Positions 18,495 to 56,701 of a stretch of 64,000 nt of DNA are shown piece by piece. The first letter of the stretch is position 1. Each line of letters begins with the position of its first letter. The translations under genes were made by a program, and so were the position numbers. Origin of the DNA: Escherichia coli (lineage in GTDB: Bacteria; Pseudomonadota; Gammaproteobacteria; Enterobacterales; Enterobacteriaceae); NCBI RefSeq assembly GCF_003334765.1, contig NZ_QOWT01000007.1. One strand, written 5' to 3'. The notes below the pieces were generated by a model. That model was given only the letters and a program-made list of their open reading frames with translations, searched no databases and was not told where the DNA came from.

Positions 18495-19742
18495 TTAGCC
18501 AAATTTAGGTAACACGTTAAAGACGTTGCCGAACCAGCACAAAATCACGGTTATACCAAAGAGAATGACAATCGCCGGAATAAGATTGCCGCCCCAGACC
18601 GTGAACATCTGATTGGGAAACTTCTTGCGAGCTTTGATTGCAAGCACTGCGGGAATAATGACCGCCCAGATGGTGGCGCACAGCCCGGCACCGCCGATCC
18701 CGTAAATAAAGCCGTTCGGGAAGATCAGATACAACAACGCAGGTGGCAGGAAGGTTAACAGCACGGTTTTGAAACGCCCGCCGTGGGAGTTATCAATCTT
18801 AAACAGGTCCGCCAGATAATCGAACAACCCCAGCGTGACACCAAAGAACGAACTGGCAACAGCTAAGTTAGAGAACACCAGCAGGCAAAACTCGATAATG
18901 CCGTGCTGTTTGGTGCCGAGGAACGATTTCACCAGCGAATCAACGTTGCCGCCTGAGGAGATAATCGCCTTAAAGCTTTCTCGCGGAATATTCCCCATGG
19001 TGCAATAGAGCCAGAAGAGATAAATCACCAGCGCCAGCAGCGAACCAAATACCACGCTTTTGATTAACTTATCTTTGCGTTTTCCATAGCAAATAATCAG
19101 GCTGGGAATATTGCCGTGGAAACCAAATGACGCCAGACACACCGGCAAAGCCATAAAGATATACGGGAAGTAAGACGTTCCCGCAGTGGAGCTGGTGGCG
19201 TCGCGCAGAATGGAGTAATCGACCTGGAAGAAAAAAGAACCAAACACGATCACAAAGGAGATAATCTTCAGCCCGAGGAACAATGAGGTAATACGACTGG
19301 CGGCTAACGAACTTAACCACAATACGCTGGCAACGAAAATGGCTGTGCAGATCCCGACAATACGTGGATTAGCGTGATAACCCAAATTCATTGATATCGT
19401 TTCACTAATGATCGCACCATTAGCAGAGATATAGGCATAAGTGAGGATATAGAGAACGAAGGCAACGGTAATACCGCTGATAATGTTCCAGGTGTTACCG
19501 ATTAAATCTTTGGTGATGGTGTTAAAACTGGAGCCGACGGGATAATTTAAATTTGCTTCTAATAACAATAACCCGGAATGAAGCATTGAAAACCAGGCAA
19601 TGATAAGGATAAAGGCACCCCAGAAAAACCAGGCACCGGCAAGATCAACAGGTAAAGCAAACATACCTCCACCAATTACTGTACCTGCTATAACCATAAC
19701 ACCCCAAAATGCAGAGTGCTTTTTTTCAGCTTGATCAGTCAT
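18495..19742 (-). CDS. tnaB: low-affinity tryptophan permease TnaB
   Basis: 415-aa membrane ORF downstream of tnaA. Confidence 0.93.
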   Translation of the reverse strand: MTDQAEKKHSAFWGVMVIAGTVIGGGMFALPVDLAGAWFFWGAFILIIAWFSMLHSGLLLLEANLNYPVGSSFNTITKDLIGNTWNIISGITVAFVLYILTYAYISANGAIISETISMNLGYHANPRIVGICTAIFVASVLWLSSLAASRITSLFLGLKIISFVIVFGSFFFQVDYSILRDATSSTAGTSYFPYIFMALPVCLASFGFHGNIPSLIICYGKRKDKLIKSVVFGSLLALVIYLFWLYCTMGNIPRESFKAIISSGGNVDSLVKSFLGTKQHGIIEFCLLVFSNLAVASSFFGVTLGLFDYLADLFKIDNSHGGRFKTVLLTFLPPALLYLIFPNGFIYGIGGAGLCATIWAVIIPAVLAIKARKKFPNQMFTVWGGNLIPAIVILFGITVILCWFGNVFNVLPKFG

Positions 19743-19832: not shown

Positions 19833-21248
19833 TTAAACTTCTTTAAGTTTTGCGGTGAAGTGACGCAATACTTTCGGTTCGTACGTAAAGGTTAATCCTT
19901 TAATATTCGCCGCGTTCTCTTTCACATGTTTAAAGGCTTCAATAATGAAGTCCATATGTGTTTGAGTATATGTTGCGCGCGGAATGGTTAAACGCAGCAG
20001 TTCAGCCGGGCATGGCAGTTGTTTACCGGTTTTCGGATCGCGGCCTAACAGGAAAGAGCCAATTTCTACCGCACGGATACCGGCGACTTTATACAGCTCG
20101 CAGGCCAGCGCCTGTGCCGGGAACTGGTCTGCCGGGATATGCGGCAACAGTTTACCGGCATCAACGAATGCCGCGTGACCGCCCGCCTGCTGGCAGACAA
20201 CGCCAATCTCTTCCAGACCATCGACCAGATACTGTACCTGCGCGATACGATAAGCCAGCCAGTCGAGATTCATGCCGTCATACAGACCTACCGCCAGACG
20301 CTCCATCGCGCCGCCTTCCAGGCCGCCATATGTCGGGAAGCCTTCCTGCACCACGCAAAGGGTTCTGCACTCGGTGTACACATCAAAGAAGCTGTCGTCT
20401 TTCATGCACAGCAGGCCGCCCATCGGCACCATCGCATCTTTCTTGGCGGACATCGCCAGCATATCGGCATATTTGTAGGTTTCGCGGGTGATCTGCTCGA
20501 TGGTCCAGTCTTTGTATTCTGCTTCACGCTGCTTGATGAAATAGGCGTTTTCAGCAAAGCGCGCGGAGTCCATTACCACCGGAATATCGTATTTCTTCGC
20601 GATGCTGTACATCGCTTTTAAGTTTGCCAGTGAAACCGGCTGACCACCTGCAGAGTTACTGGTGATGGTTGCAACGATATACGGCACGTTATTCGGACCA
20701 ACTTCTTCAATACCGCGTTCTAATCCCTCAAGGTCAAAGTTGCCTTTAAAGTCGTAACGCACGCCCGTATCGAAGGCTTCTTTGATATAGACGTTACGCA
20801 CGGTACAGCCGTTGATCTGGCTATGGCCCTGCGTGGTATCAAAGAAATAGTTAGAGAACGCCACCATTTTGCTGCGATCCAGGCCTTTTTCCTGCTCGCG
20901 TTTTTTAATCAGTACCGGAATATAGATTTGCTCTGCGCCACGGCCCTGGTGAGTCGGAATGGTGTATTGATAACCAAAGATATTTTTCACTGACTCGGCT
21001 AACGCATAGTAGCTACGACTGCCGCTGTAGGCTTCGTCGCCGCGCATCATCGCAGCCTGCATGCTCTGCGTCACCGCCCCGGTGCCGCTGTCGGTCAGTA
21101 AATCGATAAACACATCTTCGCTATCCAGCAGGAACGGGTTCATACCGGATTTAATAATTGCCTCTTCACGATAAGCGCGAGTGGTACGTTTTACTGGCTC
21201 AATAACACGAATGCGGAACGGTTCAGGGAGATGTTTAAAGTTTTCCAT
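19833..21248 (-). CDS. tnaA: tryptophanase TnaA
   Basis: 471-aa product [19 protein letters not shown]... (track start 21263 is an extension); PLP-enzyme sequence. Confidence 0.95.
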
Positions 21249-21468
21249 TACATAATCCTTCATTTATTTTAATTACAGTGATCCCTGTGAATATTACATC
21301 TGCTATACCGATTAATTCGCCAGATATATATGCAAGCACCATCATTTACTAAAACAAGTAAATAAACGAGAGATGACCTTTGCAAAAGGCAAAATTAAGA
21401 TATAGCAAACAAATAGATCACATTGAATCTAATCGGTTTGGCTCTGGTGATGGCTACAGAAGGGCAAA

Positions 21469-21543
21469 TCAAGGGCGGTGATCGACAATTTTGTTGTCAA
21501 TATTGAACCATTTTGAGGTCACACATATATGTAAGATATTCAT
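21469..21543 (-). CDS. tnaC: tna operon leader peptide TnaC (24 aa)
   Basis: Minus-strand ORF translating to MNILHICVTSKWFNIDNKIVDHRP with the single Trp codon and C-terminal Pro; about 220-nt spacer to tnaA. Confidence 0.9.
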   Translation of the reverse strand: MNILHICVTSKWFNIDNKIVDHRP

Positions 21544-21618
21544 AATGCACTTATCCTCGCAAGACACGAGGCTACATTATTACACTCAGAGTTTTTGTCT
21601 ATTCTGAAATTGTTTAAA

Positions 21619-21634
21619 TGTGAATCGAATCACA
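21619..21634. promoter_or_regulatory. CRP-binding site of the tna promoter
   Basis: tgtgaatcgaatcaca is a near-perfect TGTGA-N6-TCACA palindrome upstream of tnaC. Confidence 0.6.
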
Positions 21635-21785
21635 ATCGTTCGGGGAGCAATATTAAATGCTTTTTTTAAAGATTATAAATTACGTAAGAATTTTAATGTT
21701 TAAAAAAAGGGTTGAGGAATAACAGGAGTGGTAACAATGAAGCGAAGCCGCATCTGACAGTCAGAATGCGGCTTCGTAAGCGCGG

Positions 21786-23150
21786 TTACTTACCAATACA
21801 GAAGCTGGAGAAAATCCGCCCCAGCAGGTCGTCTGAAGTAAATTCCCCGGTGATTTCGCTTAAGTTCTGCTGTGCCAGACGCAACTCTTCCGCCAGCAGT
21901 TCACCTGCCCAGGCTCCCAACAGTTGCGCTTTGCCCTGTTGTAGATGTTCCGCTGCCTGTTCCAGCGCCTGTAGGTGGCGACGACGCGCCAGGAAGCCGC
22001 CTTCCATGTTGGTGTCAAAGCCCATGCTCTGTTTGAGATGGTTACGCAGCACGTCCACGCCTTCACCAGTCCTTGCCGAGAGACGAATTAACGCGTGACC
22101 GTTCACTTCACTCATTCCCAGCGTTTCGCCGGTGATATCGGCTTTATTGCGCACCACGGTGATCGGCAGTTTCGCTGGCAGACGGGCAATAAATTCCGGC
22201 CAGATCTCTGCCGGATCCACGGCGTCTGTTGTGGTGCCATCGACCATAAACAGCACGCGGTCGGCCTGTTCAATTTCCTGCCACGCGCGCTCGATACCAA
22301 TACGTTCTACTTCGTCACTGGCTTCACGTAGCCCGGCGGTATCGATGATATGCAGCGGCATTCCGTCAATGTGGATATGCTCACGCAGCACGTCACGCGT
22401 AGTTCCGGCGATATCGGTTACGATTGCCGCTTCACGCCCCGCCAGCGCGTTTAACAGGCTCGATTTACCGGCGTTAGGACGTCCGGCAATCACCACTTTC
22501 ATCCCTTCGCGCAACAAACTACCCTGACGTGCTTCAGCACGCACTGCATCAAGATCGGCAATAACGTCATTGAGCTGGGCTTCAATTTTTCCGTCGGAGA
22601 GGAAATCGATCTCTTCATCGGGGAAATCAATTGCCGCTTCGACGTAAATGCGCAAGTGGGTGAGGGCTTCTACCAGATGATTAACCCGTGCGGAGAATGC
22701 GCCTTGCAGCGAGTTAAGTGCCGAACGGGCCGCCTGTTCCGAACTGGCGTCGATAAGATCGGCAATCGCCTCGGCCTGGGCTAAGTCAAGTTTATCGTTA
22801 AGAAACGCGCGTTCGGAAAACTCACCAGGGCGAGCAATCCGCAGGCCGGGAATGGTCAGAATGCGTTTTAACAGCAGGTCGAGGATCACCGGACCGCCAT
22901 GACCTTGCAGTTCCAGCACATCTTCGCCGGTGAACGAGTTCGGGCCAGGGAACCATAGCGCAATCCCCTGATCGAGCACGCTGCCGTCGGCGTCTTTAAA
23001 CGGAAGATAATCGGCGTAGCGCGGCTTAGGCAGTTTACCCAGCACGGTTTCGGCAACTTCACGGGCTTTGAAGCCGGAGATGCGCAGGATGCCAACGCCG
23101 CCACGTCCCGGAGGCGTGGCCTGGGCTACGATAGTGTCATTATCGCTCAT
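21786..23150 (-). CDS. mnmE: tRNA modification GTPase MnmE (TrmE)
   Basis: 454-aa ORF with G-domain motifs [13 protein letters not shown] and C-terminal CIGK. Confidence 0.95.
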
Positions 23151-26248: not shown

Positions 26249-27652
26249 GTGTCACTTTCGCTTTGGCAGCAGTGTCTTGCCCGATTGCAGGATGAGTTAC
26301 CAGCCACAGAATTCAGTATGTGGATACGCCCATTGCAGGCGGAACTGAGCGATAACACGCTGGCCCTGTACGCGCCAAACCGTTTTGTCCTCGATTGGGT
26401 ACGGGACAAGTACCTTAATAATATCAATGGACTGCTAACCAGTTTCTGCGGAGCGGATGCCCCACAGCTGCGTTTTGAAGTCGGCACCAAACCGGTGACG
26501 CAAACGCCACAAGCGGCAGTGACGAGCAACGTCGCGGCCCCTGCACAGGTGGCGCAAACGCAGCCGCAACGTGCTGCGCCTTCTACGCGCTCAGGTTGGG
26601 ATAACGTCCCGGCCCCGGCAGAACCGACCTATCGTTCTAACGTAAACGTCAAACACACGTTTGATAACTTCGTTGAAGGTAAATCTAACCAACTGGCGCG
26701 CGCGGCGGCTCGCCAGGTGGCGGATAACCCTGGCGGTGCCTATAACCCGTTGTTCCTTTATGGCGGCACGGGTCTGGGTAAAACTCACCTGCTGCATGCG
26801 GTGGGTAACGGCATTATGGCGCGCAAGCCGAATGCCAAAGTGGTTTATATGCACTCCGAGCGCTTTGTTCAGGACATGGTTAAAGCCCTGCAAAACAACG
26901 CGATCGAAGAGTTTAAACGCTACTACCGTTCCGTAGATGCACTGCTGATCGACGATATTCAGTTTTTTGCTAATAAAGAACGATCTCAGGAAGAGTTTTT
27001 CCACACCTTCAACGCCCTGCTGGAAGGTAATCAACAGATCATTCTCACCTCGGATCGCTATCCGAAAGAGATCAACGGCGTTGAGGATCGTTTGAAATCC
27101 CGCTTCGGTTGGGGACTGACTGTGGCGATCGAACCGCCAGAGCTGGAAACCCGTGTGGCGATCCTGATGAAAAAGGCCGACGAAAACGACATTCGTTTGC
27201 CGGGCGAAGTGGCGTTCTTTATCGCCAAGCGTCTACGATCTAACGTACGTGAGCTGGAAGGGGCGCTGAACCGCGTCATTGCCAATGCCAACTTTACCGG
27301 ACGGGCGATCACCATCGACTTCGTGCGTGAGGCGCTGCGCGACTTGCTGGCATTGCAGGAAAAACTGGTCACCATCGACAATATTCAGAAGACGGTGGCG
27401 GAGTACTACAAGATCAAAGTCGCGGATCTCCTTTCCAAGCGTCGATCCCGCTCGGTGGCGCGTCCGCGCCAGATGGCGATGGCGCTGGCGAAAGAGCTGA
27501 CTAACCACAGTCTGCCGGAGATTGGCGATGCGTTTGGTGGCCGTGACCACACGACGGTGCTTCATGCCTGCCGTAAGATCGAGCAGTTGCGTGAAGAGAG
27601 CCACGATATCAAAGAAGATTTTTCAAATTTAATCAGAACATTGTCATCGTAA
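26249..27652 (+). CDS. dnaA: chromosomal replication initiator DnaA
   Basis: 467-aa product from GTG at 26249 ([14 protein letters not shown]...); AAA+ Walker [12 protein letters not shown]; track start 26237 is an upstream extension. Confidence 0.95.
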
Positions 27653-32293: not shown

Positions 32294-32393
32294 TGCCTGA
32301 TGCGCTACGCTTATCAGGCCTACGAAAATCTTGCAATGTATTGAATTTTCATGATTTTGTAGGCCGGATAAGGCGTTCACGCCGCATCCGGCA
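32294..32393. repeat. BIME: two inverted REP units flanking an AT-rich spacer
   Basis: tgcctgatgcgctacgcttatcaggcctac (32294-32323) and gtaggccggataaggcgttcacgccgcatccggca (32359-32393) in opposite orientation. Confidence 0.6.
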
Positions 32394-42455: not shown

Positions 42456-42555
42456 CATCGTAGCCGATGAGGACGCGCCTGATGGGTGTTCTGGCTACCT
42501 GACCTGTCCATTGTGGAAGGTCTTACATTCTCGCTGATTTCAGGAGCTATTGATT

Positions 42556-42969
42556 ATGCGTAACTTTGATTTATCCCCGCTTTACCGTTCTGCTATTGGA
42601 TTTGACCGTTTGTTTAACCACTTAGAAAACAACCAGAGCCAGAGTAATGGCGGCTACCCTCCGTATAACGTTGAACTGGTAGACGAAAACCATTACCGCA
42701 TTGCTATCGCTGTGGCTGGTTTTGCTGAGAGCGAACTGGAAATTACCGCCCAGGATAATCTGCTGGTGGTGAAAGGTGCTCACGCCGACGAACAAAAAGA
42801 GCGCACCTATCTGTACCAGGGCATCGCTGAACGCAACTTTGAACGCAAATTCCAGTTAGCTGAGAACATTCATGTTCGTGGTGCTAACCTGGTAAATGGT
42901 TTGCTGTATATCGATCTCGAACGCGTGATTCCGGAAGCGAAAAAACCGCGCCGTATCGAAATCAACTAA
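42556..42969 (+). CDS. ibpA: small heat-shock protein IbpA
   Basis: 137-aa product [19 protein letters not shown]..., alpha-crystallin domain. Confidence 0.94.
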
Positions 42970-49861: not shown

Positions 49862-51814
49862 ATGAATTCGTTACAAATCTTGAGTTTTGTCGGTTTTACG
49901 CTGCTGGTGGCGGTGATCACCTGGTGGAAGGTCCGCAAAACAGATACCGGATCGCAACAAGGCTATTTTCTTGCCGGACGTTCACTAAAAGCGCCGGTTA
50001 TTGCCGCTTCGTTAATGCTAACCAACCTTTCCACGGAACAACTGGTCGGCCTTTCCGGGCAGGCCTACAAAAGCGGCATGTCGGTGATGGGCTGGGAAGT
50101 GACTTCAGCGGTGACGCTGATCTTCCTCGCGCTAATCTTTTTACCGCGCTATCTGAAGCGCGGCATTGCCACCATCCCCGATTTTCTGGAGGAACGTTAT
50201 GATAAAACGACGCGTATTATCATCGACTTCTGCTTCCTAATTGCCACCGGCGTCTGCTTTCTGCCGATTGTTCTCTACTCCGGCGCGTTGGCGCTCAACA
50301 GCCTGTTTCACGTCGGGGAATCGCTACAGATTTCTCACGGTGCGGCTATCTGGCTACTGGTAATTTTGCTTGGTCTGGCGGGAATTTTGTATGCGGTGAT
50401 CGGCGGACTGCGCGCAATGGCAGTGGCGGACTCCATCAACGGTATTGGGCTGGTTATCGGCGGGTTGATGGTGCCGGTATTTGGCCTGATCGCGATGGGC
50501 AAGGGCAGCTTTATGCAGGGCATTGAGCAACTCACCACCGTTCACGCCGAGAAATTAAACTCAATCGGTGGCCCGACCGATCCCTTGCCGATTGGCGCGG
50601 CATTTACCGGTTTGATTCTGGTGAACACCTTTTACTGGTGTACAAATCAGGGCATCGTGCAACGCACGCTGGCGTCAAAAAGCCTGGCGGAAGGGCAAAA
50701 GGGGGCGCTGTTAACGGCGGTGCTGAAAATGCTCGACCCGCTGGTACTGGTGCTGCCAGGGTTGATTGCGTTTCATCTGTATCAGGATTTACCGAAAGCC
50801 GACATGGCCTACCCGACGCTGGTCAATAACGTTCTGCCAGTGCCAATGGTGGGTTTCTTCGGCGCGGTGTTATTTGGTGCGGTGATCAGTACCTTCAACG
50901 GCTTTCTGAATAGCGCCAGTACGTTATTCAGTATGGGTATTTACCGTCGCATCATTAACCAGAATGCCGAGCCGCAGCAGCTGGTCACCGTCGGGCGCAA
51001 ATTTGGTTTCTTTATCGCTATCGTTTCGGTGCTGGTCGCGCCGTGGATCGCCAACGCGCCGCAGGGGCTGTATAGCTGGATGAAACAGCTCAACGGCATT
51101 TACAACGTGCCGCTGGTTACCATCATCATTATGGGCTTTTTCTTCCCGCGCATCCCGGCGCTGGCGGCAAAAGTAGCGATGGGGATTGGCATAATCAGCT
51201 ACATCACCATCAACTATCTGGTGAAGTTCGACTTCCATTTCCTCTATGTGCTGGCCTGTACGTTCTGCATCAACGTGGTCGTGATGCTGGTGATCGGTTT
51301 TATCAAACCGCGCGCCACGCCGTTCACCTTCAAAGATGCGTTTGCGGTGGACATGAAACCGTGGAAAAACGTCAAGATCGCGTCAATTGGCATCCTGTTC
51401 GCGATGATTGGCGTCTATGCCGGGCTGGCTGAATTCGGCGGCTACGGTACGCGCTGGTTAGCGATGATCAGTTATTTCATTGCCGCCGTAGTGATTGTCT
51501 ACCTGATTTTTGACAGCTGGCGGCGGAAGGTATTCGCTTTAATTCCGCCTACACCTGTTCACCGGTTTGTACGCCTGCACGGGCCGGACTATTTACCGGT
51601 ATCTACGCTAACCAGTCCGGCCCGTGGACCAACAACGTCGCGCCAGGCAAAAACATCTCCACTATGGGGCGCTACTTTAAGGATGCCGGCTATCACACCT
51701 GTTACATCGGCAAATGGCATCTCGACGGTCATGACTATTTCGGCACTGGCGAGTGTCCGCCGGAGTGGGACGCTGATTACTGGTTCGATGGGGCGAACTA
51801 TCTTAGCGAACTGA
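49862..51814 (+). CDS. yidK: sodium:solute symporter (SSS family) YidK; 3' end aberrant, reads out of frame into yidJ
   Basis: First ~552 codons are a typical SSS transporter; the last ~100 codons are low-complexity out-of-frame translation of the sulfatase gene. Confidence 0.6.
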   Translation: MNSLQILSFVGFTLLVAVITWWKVRKTDTGSQQGYFLAGRSLKAPVIAASLMLTNLSTEQLVGLSGQAYKSGMSVMGWEVTSAVTLIFLALIFLPRYLKRGIATIPDFLEERYDKTTRIIIDFCFLIATGVCFLPIVLYSGALALNSLFHVGESLQISHGAAIWLLVILLGLAGILYAVIGGLRAMAVADSINGIGLVIGGLMVPVFGLIAMGKGSFMQGIEQLTTVHAEKLNSIGGPTDPLPIGAAFTGLILVNTFYWCTNQGIVQRTLASKSLAEGQKGALLTAVLKMLDPLVLVLPGLIAFHLYQDLPKADMAYPTLVNNVLPVPMVGFFGAVLFGAVISTFNGFLNSASTLFSMGIYRRIINQNAEPQQLVTVGRKFGFFIAIVSVLVAPWIANAPQGLYSWMKQLNGIYNVPLVTIIIMGFFFPRIPALAAKVAMGIGIISYITINYLVKFDFHFLYVLACTFCINVVVMLVIGFIKPRATPFTFKDAFAVDMKPWKNVKIASIGILFAMIGVYAGLAEFGGYGTRWLAMISYFIAAVVIVYLIFDSWRRKVFALIPPTPVHRFVRLHGPDYLPVSTLTSPARGPTTSRQAKTSPLWGATLRMPAITPVTSANGISTVMTISALASVRRSGTLITGSMGRTILAN

Positions 51815-52908
51815 CGGAAAAAGAGATTAGCCTGTGGCGCAATGGCCTAAACAGCGTCGAAGATTTACAGGCGAACCATATCGACGAAACCTTCACCTGG
51901 GCGCATCGTATCAGCAATCGGGCGGTGGATTTTCTGCAACAGCCTGCGCGCGCAGACGAGCCTTTCCTGATGGTGGTTTCGTATGATGAGCCGCATCACC
52001 CGTTCACCTGTCCGGTGGAGTATTTAGAGAAATACGCTGATTTTTACTACGAGCTGGGCGAGAAAGCACAGGATGACCTGGCTAACAAACCGGAACATCA
52101 CCGCTTATGGGCGCAGGCGATGCCATCGCCAGTCGGTGATGACGGGCTTTATCACCATCCGCTCTATTTTGCCTGTAATGACTTTGTTGATGACCAAATC
52201 GGACGGGTCATCAATGCCTTAACGCCAGAGCAACGTGAAAATACGTGGGTTATTTATACCTCCGATCACGGCGAAATGATGGGCGCACATAAGCTGATCA
52301 GTAAAGGGGCGGCGATGTATGACGACATCACCCGCATTCCGCTGATCATCCGTTCGCCGCAAGGGGAGCGGCGACAGGTCGATACGCCAGTCAGTCATAT
52401 CGATTTACTGCCGACAATGATGGCGCTGGCAGATATTGAAAAACCAGAGATTCTGCCGGGGGAAAATATCCTTGCCGTGAAAGAGCCACGCGGCGTGATG
52501 GTGGAATTTAACCGCTACGAGATTGAGCATGACAGCTTTGGCGGTTTTATTCCGGTGCGTTGCTGGGTGACGGATGACTTTAAACTGGTACTCAACCTCT
52601 TCACCAGTGATGAACTTTACGATCGCCGTAATGACCCAAATGAAATGCATAACCTGATCGATGATATCCGTTTTGCAGACGTTCGCAGCAAAATGCATGA
52701 CGCCTTATTGGATTACATGGACAAAATTCGCGATCCGTTCCGCAGTTACCAATGGAGTCTGCGTCCGTGGCGTAAAGATGCACGGCCGCGCTGGATGGGG
52801 GCGTTTCGTCCACGTCCACAAGATGGCTATTCGCCAGTTGTACGCGACTATGACACCGGCCTACCGACACAAGGGGTGAAGGTGGAGGAGAAAAAACAGA
52901 AGTTCTGA
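51514..52908 (+). pseudogene. yidJ: sulfatase YidJ, 5'-truncated
   Basis: Sulfatase signature CTPAR (Cys codon 51568-51570) within QLAAEGIRFNSAYTCSPVCTPARAGLFTG lies in frame upstream of the first ATG (51664); in-frame TGA at 51511 leaves no room for the conserved N-terminal domain. Confidence 0.55.
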
Positions 52909-56560: not shown

Positions 56561-56701
56561 TGCACTAAATACGTCAAAATTCGTGCCGAAATTGCGCGTT
56601 CTGCGCGGAACACGTATACTTTCAGTGTTGACATAATACAGTGTGCTTTGCGGTTACCAGCCGCAGGCGACTGACGAAACCTCGCTCCGGCGGGGTTTTT
56701 T
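56561..56701 (+). ncRNA. istR: IstR antitoxin sRNA (IstR-2 about 140 nt; IstR-1 about 75 nt at roughly 56626-56701)
   Basis: Plus-strand terminator hairpin with T-run ending about 56701; candidate -10 tatact at 56615-56620 for the short form; 20-nt segment 56628-56647 complementary to tisAB mRNA region 56370-56389; ends estimated from published sizes. Confidence 0.55.

What the first reader, a model, noticed from the sequence alone, without database searches (positions are those of the whole stretch)
21249..21650. tna leader: 24-codon tnaC plus long untranslated spacer for Trp-dependent Rho antitermination
The minus-strand ORF 21469-21543 encodes MNILHICVTSKWFNIDNKIVDHRP with the critical Trp12 and terminal Pro24. 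It is separated from tnaA by about 220 nt and preceded by a near-perfect CRP palindrome (21619-21634). The feature is missing from the ORF track because of its size.
Basis: partly seen in the sequence, partly recalled or inferred. Interest (0 to 1): 0.3.

Follow-up and report, generated by a model that had tools for sequence, protein, structure and literature searches.

The report
E. coli tnaC tryptophanase leader, textbook

Summary
Confirmed, and already known.

- **tnaC:** the minus-strand ORF 21543..21469 translates to MNILHICVTSKWFNIDNKIVDHRP*.
- **Spacer:** exactly 220 nt (21468..21249) separate it from the tnaA start at 21248.
- **CRP site:** a perfect TGTGA-N6-TCACA core lies at 21619-21634. 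It is the only one in the 64 kb window, against 0.03 expected by chance.
- **Identity:** window 21200-21800 matches E. coli K-12 MG1655 at all 601 bases. RefSeq annotates tnaC at these coordinates. The peptide equals PDB 6I0Y chain 7 and passes the NCBIfam tnaC_leader equivalog cutoff.

The rut-like C-over-G, poorly structured tract covers only about 21484..21435, across the stop codon. The rest of the spacer is AT-rich with G over C.

In five divergent E. coli alleles, tnaC changes only synonymously. The CRP site, the first 50 spacer nt and the last 51 nt are nearly invariant, while the middle of the spacer varies.

The mechanism comes from the literature and was not tested here. Tryptophan blocks RF2 release of TnaC-tRNAPro, and the stalled ribosome hides boxA and rut from Rho.

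Side note: about one third of complete E. coli genomes use TAA rather than TGA as the tnaC stop codon.

Interest is low.

The parts
21743..21776 (-). Strong hairpin just after the mnmE stop codon (mnmE ends at 21786). It is probably the mnmE terminator or insulator upstream of the tna promoter. This is context, not part of the leader itself.
   Evidence: RNA fold -26.9 kcal/mol, z = -5.0, 0 of 200 shuffles as stable. The consensus terminator scan did not report it and the U-tract is weak. Its function is inferred.
21616..21637 (-). CRP (CAP)-cAMP binding site. The 22-mer is GATTGTGATTCGATTCACATTT and the core TGTGA-N6-TCACA is at 21619-21634.
   Evidence: Unique in the 64 kb window against 0.03 expected. 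15/22 to consensus with both pentamers perfect. Invariant in 5 divergent E. coli alleles although the flanks vary. CAP/cAMP activation of tna is stated in PMC3299997 and PMC5748587.
21574..21601 (-). Candidate core promoter. The -35-like TAGACA is at 21601-21596. The -10 is either AATAAT at 21581-21576, preceded by TGn, or TAATGT at 21579-21574. The transcription start is near 21567.
   Evidence: Inferred from reading the sequence. TAGACA is invariant, and the -10 region differs between alleles but stays -10-like (AATAAT versus TATACT). The consensus scan found no canonical promoter on this strand, as expected for an activator-dependent promoter. The start near 21567 rests on my recollection of a 319-nt leader (Deeley and Yanofsky 1982; Stewart and Yanofsky 1985) and was not verified here.
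21554..21558 (-). Shine-Dalgarno GAGGA for tnaC, 10 nt before the ATG.
   Evidence: Read directly from the sequence. Invariant in 5 alleles.
21469..21543 (-). tnaC: the 24-codon leader peptide ORF plus its TGA stop, encoding MNILHICVTSKWFNIDNKIVDHRP.
   Evidence: In 5 alleles there are 5 synonymous changes, no amino-acid changes and one stop-codon change.
21469..21477 (-). boxA-like sequence CGCCCTTGA, covering codons 23-24 and the stop codon.
   Evidence: 7 of 9 to the boxA consensus CGCTCTTTA. Its role is the subject of Konan and Yanofsky 2000. That paper's title appears, but the text is not held, so the exact boxA bases are from my recollection of the abstract.
21435..21484 (-). rut-like tract, the Rho loading site: C-rich and poorly structured, spanning the tnaC stop codon.
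   Evidence: C 20 and G 8 in 50 nt, in the top 1.2% of all minus-strand 50-nt windows (profile). The fold of 21490..21419 is -5.7 kcal/mol, z = +0.98, so it is no more structured than shuffles. One variable site in the first 50 spacer nt, against 13% in mid-spacer. The literature places rut immediately next to the stop codon (PMC10941005).
21429..21444 (-). Predicted Spot 42 sRNA pairing site, GAGCCAAACCGAUUAG, which pairs with Spot 42 nt 49-65.
   Evidence: Local duplex of -19.4 kcal/mol, reached by 3 of 100 dinucleotide shuffles. The spf sequence was taken from K-12. PMC5748587 reports a 15-nt Spot 42 tract pairing in the tnaC-tnaA spacer and repressing tnaCAB. That this is the same site is my inference.
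21249..21468 (-). The 220-nt untranslated tnaC-tnaA spacer. It contains rut at its 5' end, the Rho-dependent pause and termination region, and the tnaA translation-initiation region at its 3' end.
   Evidence: Length and composition A63 C35 G39 T83. No intrinsic-terminator-like site in it. The middle 119 nt are 13.4% variable and the last 51 nt are invariant. Rho-dependent terminators are placed here by PMC3299997, and L4 binding to the spacer by PMC7858274.
21256..21260 (-). Shine-Dalgarno AAGGA for tnaA, 7 nt before the ATG at 21248.
   Evidence: Read directly from the sequence. Invariant in 5 alleles.
19833..21248 (-). tnaA, tryptophanase (471 aa).
   Evidence: TIGR02617 at 1010 bits against a cutoff of 825.8. 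RefSeq annotation.
18495..19742 (-). tnaB, low-affinity tryptophan permease (415 aa).
   Evidence: NF007235 at 925 bits against a cutoff of 497. RefSeq annotation.

Best explanation
This is the regulatory leader of the E. coli tnaCAB (tryptophanase) operon, in the same form as the K-12 reference.

How it works:
1. cAMP-CRP bound at 21616-21637 activates transcription from a weak promoter that starts near 21567.
2. A ribosome translates the 24-codon tnaC (21543..21469).
3. When free tryptophan is low, RF2 releases TnaC at the UGA stop and the ribosome leaves. This exposes the boxA-like sequence (21477..21469) and the C-rich, unstructured rut tract (about 21484..21435). Rho loads there, catches RNA polymerase at pause sites in the 220-nt spacer, and terminates before tnaA.
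4. When tryptophan is high, one L-Trp binds in the exit tunnel next to TnaC W12 and D16. Cleavage of TnaC-tRNAPro (P24 in the P site) by RF2 is inhibited. The stalled ribosome covers boxA and rut, Rho cannot load, and tnaA and tnaB are transcribed.
5. The spacer also carries later-described layers: a Spot 42 sRNA pairing site and L4 binding.

Shown here: the sequence anatomy, the identity with the reference and with the peptide in a solved structure, family membership, the composition and low structure of the rut tract, the absence of an intrinsic terminator, and the conservation pattern.

Taken from the literature and not testable here: tryptophan dependence, Rho dependence, RF2 inhibition and CRP activation.
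For: - Exact translation.
- 601/601 DNA identity to K-12 MG1655, including tnaC b3707.
- tnaC, tnaA and tnaB are annotated at these positions in RefSeq, with mnmE upstream and mdtL downstream.
- The locus is present in 5420 of 5426 complete E. coli genomes.
- The peptide is identical to PDB 6I0Y chain 7, 'Tryptophanase operon leader peptide'.
- TIGR02616 tnaC_leader equivalog, 44.3 bits against a cutoff of 23.55, with tnaA and tnaB equivalogs downstream.
- The CRP core is unique in the window and invariant across alleles.
- The C-over-G peak straddles the stop codon and is unstructured.
- There is no intrinsic terminator in the spacer.
- tnaC shows only synonymous variation.
- The mechanism is described for this operon in PMC12360218, PMC8429421, PMC10941005 and PMC3299997.
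Against: Nothing substantive.
- The rut signal is modest when judged by composition alone (top 1.2% of windows, G not strongly depleted).
- The promoter hexamers and transcription start were not determined here, and the consensus scan found no canonical promoter on this strand.
- There is no Rfam family for this leader. That is expected for a peptide- and Rho-based attenuator and does not count against it.
Confidence: 0.98

Rival explanations
1. The 24-codon ORF is a chance ORF in an intergenic region, and the upstream palindrome is coincidental.
For: Short ORFs are abundant. One search lists 105 ORFs of at least 20 aa within 7.5 kb, and a 24-codon ORF on its own is not significant.
Against: - It is identical to the experimentally studied TnaC.
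- It passes a curated equivalog model.
- Divergent E. coli alleles show five synonymous and no amino-acid changes, while nearby non-coding DNA varies at up to 13-19% of positions.
- The CRP core is expected 0.03 times per window.
Confidence: 0.003
2. The leader works like the trp operon attenuator. Ribosome position on the leader peptide would choose between alternative RNA hairpins, one of them an intrinsic (Rho-independent) terminator.
For: It is a short leader peptide with a Trp codon in front of a tryptophan-related operon. The whole-leader fold predicts long-range pairing in the AT-rich spacer (MFE -72.7 kcal/mol for 349 nt).
Against: - No G+C-rich hairpin followed by a U-tract exists anywhere in 21468..21249.
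- There is a single Trp codon rather than tandem codons, and regulation responds to excess tryptophan, not to its shortage.
- The segment next to the stop codon is unstructured (z = +0.98).
- The literature shows Rho dependence.
Confidence: 0.01
3. The long spacer exists mainly for post-transcriptional control of tnaA (Spot 42/Hfq pairing, L4 binding, control of tnaA translation initiation), and Rho termination is secondary.
For: - A Spot 42-complementary tract lies at 21444..21429, and repression through the spacer has been published (PMC5748587).
- L4 is reported to bind the spacer and repress TnaA translation (PMC7858274).
- The last 51 nt of the spacer are invariant.
Against: - These layers add to the primary switch and do not replace it. 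Induction by tryptophan is about 38-fold and depends on the tnaC AUG (Table 1 of PMC10941005).
- The Spot 42 duplex is only modestly better than chance (3 of 100 shuffles).
- The middle 119 nt of the spacer vary freely (13.4%).
Confidence: 0.01

Closest known systems
E. coli K-12 tnaC / tna operon leader (b3707; Yanofsky laboratory system)
   Same: Everything. 601 of 601 bases match over 21200-21800. The peptide, the UGA stop, the 220-nt spacer, the CRP site and the gene order mnmE-tnaC-tnaA-tnaB-mdtL are all the same.
   Different: Nothing within the leader. The nearest difference from MG1655 is a synonymous tnaA change at 21111 (Val46, GTT to GTG).
speFL-speF ornithine-sensing leader (uORF-dependent, Rho-dependent attenuation)
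   Same: The logic is the same according to PMC12360218. A small-molecule-dependent arrest peptide stalls the ribosome, which shields a rut site and allows transcription of the downstream catabolic gene.
   Different: The ligand is ornithine and the peptide is different. According to PMC11890864, RF1 rather than RF2 is blocked. The peptides share no sequence relationship.
trpL / trp operon attenuator
   Same: A short leader peptide that senses tryptophan status through a translating ribosome and controls transcription read-through.
   Different: trp senses charged tRNATrp at tandem Trp codons and uses alternative hairpins with an intrinsic terminator. tna senses free L-Trp inside the ribosome tunnel at the stop codon and uses Rho. 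No intrinsic terminator is present here.
Class I CRP-dependent promoters such as lac
   Same: A consensus-like CRP site sits about 60 bp upstream of the presumed start, with a weak core promoter.
   Different: The exact spacing was not established here. The centre of the site is 59.5 bp upstream of position 21567, and that start position is recalled rather than measured.

Membership tests
TnaC tryptophanase leader peptide (NCBIfam TIGR02616) | Sequence match to the curated equivalog model above its cutoff | tested here: met
   44.3 bits against a cutoff of 23.55, E 1.1e-11, covering profile positions 1-22 of 22.
TnaC tryptophanase leader peptide (NCBIfam TIGR02616) | Conserved functional residues W12, D16, I19 and a C-terminal P24 directly followed by a stop codon (listed as critical in PMC10941005 and PMC3299997) | tested here: met
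   MNILHICVTSKWFNIDNKIVDHRP* has W12, D16, I19 and P24 followed by TGA. Residue roles are given.
TnaC tryptophanase leader peptide (NCBIfam TIGR02616) | Located immediately upstream of tnaA on the same strand | tested here: met
   tnaA (TIGR02617, 1010 bits) starts 220 nt downstream on the same strand, followed by tnaB.
TnaC tryptophanase leader peptide (NCBIfam TIGR02616) | L-Trp-dependent ribosome arrest at the stop codon (inhibition of RF2) | not testable with these tools
   Established experimentally and structurally for the identical peptide: PDB 6I0Y and 4UY8 and PMC8429421.
uORF-shielded Rho-dependent attenuator | C-rich, G-poorer, unstructured rut tract next to the uORF stop codon | tested here: met
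   C 20 and G 8 in 21484..21435, in the top 1.2% of windows. Fold z = +0.98. The signal is modest but sits where published work places rut.
uORF-shielded Rho-dependent attenuator | No intrinsic terminator between the uORF and the structural gene | tested here: met
   No terminator-like site in 21468..21249. The only two hits on this strand lie inside mnmE.
uORF-shielded Rho-dependent attenuator | Termination depends on Rho (bicyclomycin or rho mutants) | not testable with these tools
   From the literature only.
CRP-activated promoter | CRP consensus site TGTGA-N6-TCACA upstream of the core promoter | tested here: met
   Perfect half-sites at 21619-21634, unique in the window and invariant in 5 alleles.
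CRP-activated promoter | Site centred at a helical-phase position (-61.5, -41.5 and so on) relative to a mapped transcription start | tested here: inconclusive
   The transcription start was not mapped here. With the recalled 319-nt leader (start at 21567) the centre is at -59.5. A start at 21565 would give -61.5.
Rfam cis-regulatory RNA families | Match to any curated covariance model | tested here: not met
   No match at E up to 1 in 20800-22000. The tna leader is not an Rfam family, so this says nothing against the identification.

The most novel reading that the evidence does not exclude
The leader in this window is not new. The least documented thing I saw is that the E. coli tna leader exists as two major natural alleles. 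The K-12/window type has a UGA tnaC stop (3594 of 5426 complete genomes). A second type has a UAA stop with a linked G-to-A change four bases into rut, plus a different -10 region (1751 genomes). UGA is read only by RF2 and UAA by both RF1 and RF2, and the changes fall inside boxA and rut. The two alleles could therefore set different basal and induced levels of indole production between lineages. I did not find this in the few held papers I searched, but engineered UAA and UAG variants were studied long ago (Konan and Yanofsky 1999, recalled, not verified here).
Probability: 0.2. Interest if true: 0.3.

Novelty: already known. Interest (0 to 1): 0.05.

Why it matters
It matters only as a check on the scan. 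The first-stage reader correctly recognised a 24-codon regulatory ORF, its CRP site and its spacer from raw sequence, at exact coordinates.

The tna leader is a classic example of a metabolite-sensing arrest peptide coupled to Rho-dependent termination, and it is used as a tryptophan biosensor (PMC12360218). The copy in this window is identical to the reference and adds nothing new.

The population-level observations could interest people working on strain differences in indole signalling. These are the UGA/UAA stop alleles, the IS1 insertions in the leader, and the invariant rut, Spot 42 and ribosome-binding segments set against a variable mid-spacer.

Tried and rejected
- **Rfam:** a permissive scan of 20800-22000 (E up to 1) gave no hit. 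There is no curated family for this leader.
- **Promoter scan:** the consensus scan found no canonical sigma-70 promoter on the minus strand and only one weak plus-strand match. My promoter hexamers are therefore read by eye, and the transcription start is recalled.
- **Spot 42, first attempt:** RNA duplex prediction with full-length Spot 42 against the whole spacer gave a meaninglessly long duplex, no better than shuffles (87 of 200 as good). I replaced it with a local 18-mer by 30-mer scan.
- **Papers not held:** Konan and Yanofsky 2000 (PMC94583) and Turnbough 2019 (PMC6710462) are not in the library. The exact published boxA and rut bases rest on my recollection plus secondary descriptions.
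- **Leader length:** a literature search for the 319-nt leader returned only incidental hits.
- **Natural UAA allele:** a literature search for it found nothing on point.
- **yidK-yidJ fusion:** I guessed that the 158-bp difference from MG1655 at yidK/yidJ would make an in-frame fusion. The ORF list shows it does not.
- **Searches deliberately not run:** I ran no further search on a cross-genus TnaC comparison. The identification was already settled, and the literature covers conservation.

Full report
**1. What is in the sequence**

On the minus strand, 21543..21469 is ATG plus 23 codons plus TGA. It translates to MNILHICVTSKWFNIDNKIVDHRP*, with W12, D16, I19 and P24.

GAGGA lies 10 nt upstream of the ATG, at 21558-21554. 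The next gene begins at 21248 ([18 protein letters not shown]...) with AAGGA 7 nt upstream. The untranslated spacer 21468..21249 is therefore exactly 220 nt.

The mechanical ORF list shows the tnaC frame as a 32-aa ORF from a GTG at 21567. It also extends tnaA to an in-frame ATG at 21263, giving 476 aa. RefSeq annotation uses 21543 and 21248.

At 21619-21634 the minus strand reads TGTGATTCGATTCACA. Both CRP half-sites are perfect, and 14 of 16 positions are self-complementary. The pattern TGTGA-N6-TCACA occurs once in the 64 kb window against 0.03 expected by chance.

**2. Where the window comes from**

The window is the reverse complement of E. coli K-12 MG1655 at about 3,845,8xx-3,909,977. 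It differs by about 10 single-base changes and a 158-bp length difference near window 51,510-51,524.

Over 21200-21800 it matches MG1655 at all 601 bases. The locus is present in 5420 of 5426 complete E. coli genomes, always chromosomal. The features annotated under the match are mnmE, 'tnaC: tryptophanase leader peptide' and tnaA. The gene order is yidC-mnmE-tnaC-tnaA-tnaB-mdtL.

**3. Identification**

- The peptide is identical, 24 of 24, to PDB 6I0Y chain 7 ('Tryptophanase operon leader peptide'), and its residues 5-24 match 4UY8 chain 7.
- It scores 44.3 bits against the NCBIfam equivalog TIGR02616 tnaC_leader, whose cutoff is 23.55.
- The downstream proteins pass the tnaA and tnaB equivalogs with 1010 and 925 bits.
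- There is no Rfam family for this leader, and none matched.

**4. Anatomy of the leader, tested here**

*Composition.* The excess of C over G on the transcript peaks across the tnaC stop codon. Window 21484..21435 has C 20 and G 8, which puts it in the top 1.2% of all minus-strand 50-nt windows.

*Structure.* That segment is not structured. Folding 21490..21419 gives -5.7 kcal/mol with z = +0.98.

*Rest of the spacer.* The remaining 170 nt are AT-rich with G over C (A50 C21 G30 T69). The rut-like signal is therefore confined to the part next to the stop codon and is not spread over the spacer.

*boxA.* CGCCCTTGA (21477..21469, covering codons 23-24 and the stop) matches the boxA consensus at 7 of 9 positions.

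*Terminators.* No intrinsic-terminator-like site lies in the spacer.

*Promoter.* No canonical -35/-10 pair was found on this strand, which fits an activator-dependent promoter. Reading by eye, I propose TAGACA (21601-21596) with a -10 at either 21581-21576 or 21579-21574. A start near 21567 is taken from my recollection of a 319-nt leader and is not verified.

**5. Constraint within E. coli**

I aligned the window with four alleles that are 95-97% identical to it.

All five encode the same TnaC protein (WP_001364348.1). Within tnaC there are five synonymous substitutions, no amino-acid changes, and one stop-codon change.

| Segment | Window coordinates | Length (nt) | Variable sites |
|---|---|---|---|
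| mnmE 3' end and intergenic region upstream of CRP | 21800-21638 | 163 | 16 (9.8%) |
| CRP 22-mer | 21637-21616 | 22 | 0 |
| CRP site to transcription start | 21615-21568 | 48 | 9 (18.8%) |
| 5' UTR | 21567-21544 | 24 | 1 (4.2%) |
| tnaC including stop | 21543-21469 | 75 | 6 (8.0%) |
| Spacer, first 50 nt | 21468-21419 | 50 | 1 (2.0%) |
| Spacer, middle | 21418-21300 | 119 | 16 (13.4%) |
| Spacer, last 51 nt | 21299-21249 | 51 | 0 |
| tnaA 5' end | 21248-21200 | 49 | 1 (2.0%) |

With only five sequences this is indicative rather than statistical. Even so, it matches the published functional map: the CRP site, the peptide, the rut tract and the tnaA ribosome-binding region are held constant, and the mid-spacer is free to vary.

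**6. Mechanism (from the literature)**

cAMP-CRP activates initiation (PMC3299997; PMC5748587).

At low tryptophan, RF2 releases TnaC at the UGA stop. The rut site next to the stop codon is exposed, and Rho terminates transcription in the spacer.

At high tryptophan, L-Trp binds in the exit tunnel with TnaC W12 and D16. RF2 cleavage of TnaC-tRNAPro is blocked. The stalled ribosome masks the Rho entry site, and tnaA and tnaB are transcribed (PMC10941005; PMC8429421; PMC12360218).

None of these steps can be tested with sequence tools. They were established on a sequence identical to this one.

**7. Extra layers in the spacer**

PMC5748587 reports that Spot 42 pairs with the tnaC-tnaA spacer through a 15-nt tract and represses tnaCAB. 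Using the K-12 spf sequence, the best local duplex joins Spot 42 nt 49-65 to window 21444..21429 at -19.4 kcal/mol. Three of 100 dinucleotide shuffles reach that energy. The site lies inside the invariant, C-rich tract. That it is the published site is my inference.

PMC7858274, citing Singh et al. 2020, reports that ribosomal protein L4 binds the spacer and represses TnaA translation.

**8. Rivals**

- A chance ORF is excluded by the identity, the model match and the synonymous-only variation.
- A trp-style hairpin attenuator is excluded by the absence of an intrinsic terminator and the lack of structure next to the stop codon.
- A mainly post-transcriptional role for the spacer is at most an added layer.

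**9. Verdict**

The feature is already known, a textbook element identical to the reference genome. Interest is 0.05.

The only mildly noteworthy result concerns other genomes rather than this window. About two thirds of complete E. coli genomes carry the UGA-type leader (3594 exact matches to the allele-specific 36-mer). About one third carry a UAA stop with a linked G-to-A change in the rut tract (1751 exact matches).

Noticed in passing
window 21470 and 21465 (tnaC stop codon and +4); loci L007 and L008: There is a natural polymorphism of the tnaC stop codon. The window and K-12 have TGA, with 3594 exact matches to the allele-specific 36-mer among 5426 complete E. coli genomes. A second allele has TAA plus a linked G-to-A change 4 nt downstream, inside boxA and rut, with 1751 exact matches. 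The peptide is unchanged. A limited literature search did not find it discussed.
   Followed up: partly
window 21574-21593 (promoter -10 region): The two leader alleles also differ in a cluster just upstream of the presumed start: CTCTGAGTGTAATAATG against TTCTTGAGTATTATACTG. This changes the -10-like hexamer from AATAAT, with an upstream TG, to TATACT without it. It could alter promoter strength.
   Followed up: no
mnmE-tnaA interval in other genomes (hits H1 NZ_CM173937.1 and H12 NZ_CP055259.1): Some E. coli strains carry an IS1 element in this interval. In strain E70 the 601-nt region is split into two pieces by an IS1 transposase gene. In strain AH62 only 16% of the region remains, no tnaC is listed under the match, and IS1 is annotated within the matched span, between the remaining mnmE-side and tnaA-side pieces. 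About 790 genomes have matches covering less than 80% of the region.
   Followed up: no
window 21743-21776 (-): A long, stable hairpin (-26.9 kcal/mol, z = -5.0) lies 10 nt after the mnmE stop codon and upstream of the tna CRP site. The terminator scan missed it because of its loop/bulge geometry and weak U-tract. It is probably the mnmE terminator or insulator.
   Followed up: partly
window 21444..21429 and 21468..21451 (-): There are two Spot 42-complementary tracts in the rut-proximal spacer. One pairs with Spot 42 nt 49-65 (-19.4 kcal/mol) and the other with nt 4-19 (-17.7 kcal/mol). Both lie inside the Rho-loading region, not downstream of it as PMC5748587 describes the site. Whether sRNA pairing here interacts with Rho loading is open.
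   Followed up: partly
window about 51510-51524 (+), yidK/yidJ junction: The window lacks about 158 bp that MG1655 has (K-12 about 3,858,296-3,858,453), with about 15 bp of overlap at the junction. As a result the yidK-frame ORF runs to 650 aa (49862..51814) and the yidJ-frame ORF is 414 aa (51664..52908). They are not fused in frame. The same junction is contiguous in several other E. coli genomes, for example ML35 and FORC 064.
   Followed up: partly
window 69, 7153, 21111, 32784, 36603, 41136, 47479, 50488: These are single-base differences from MG1655, which show that the window is a close relative of K-12 rather than MG1655 itself. The one at 21111 is a synonymous change in tnaA codon 46 (GTT in K-12, GTG here). 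Two more mismatches and a one-base gap lie beyond 51524.
   Followed up: partly
window 21263 (-): An in-frame ATG 15 nt upstream of the annotated tnaA start makes the mechanical ORF 476 aa instead of 471 aa. The tnaA Shine-Dalgarno AAGGA lies inside this extension, which favours 21248 as the real start.
   Followed up: yes
window 56572-56701 (+), 26759-26839 (-), 42490-42562 (+), 32316-32358 (-): Rfam matches above the gathering score elsewhere in the window: istR sRNA (150 bits), AsdA antisense RNA of dnaA (102 bits), the ROSE_2 thermometer of ibpA (100 bits) and ES036/CssrF sRNA (45 bits). All are expected for this K-12 region. Another leader-peptide gene, ivbL, is annotated in the K-12 region that corresponds to the window.
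   Followed up: no
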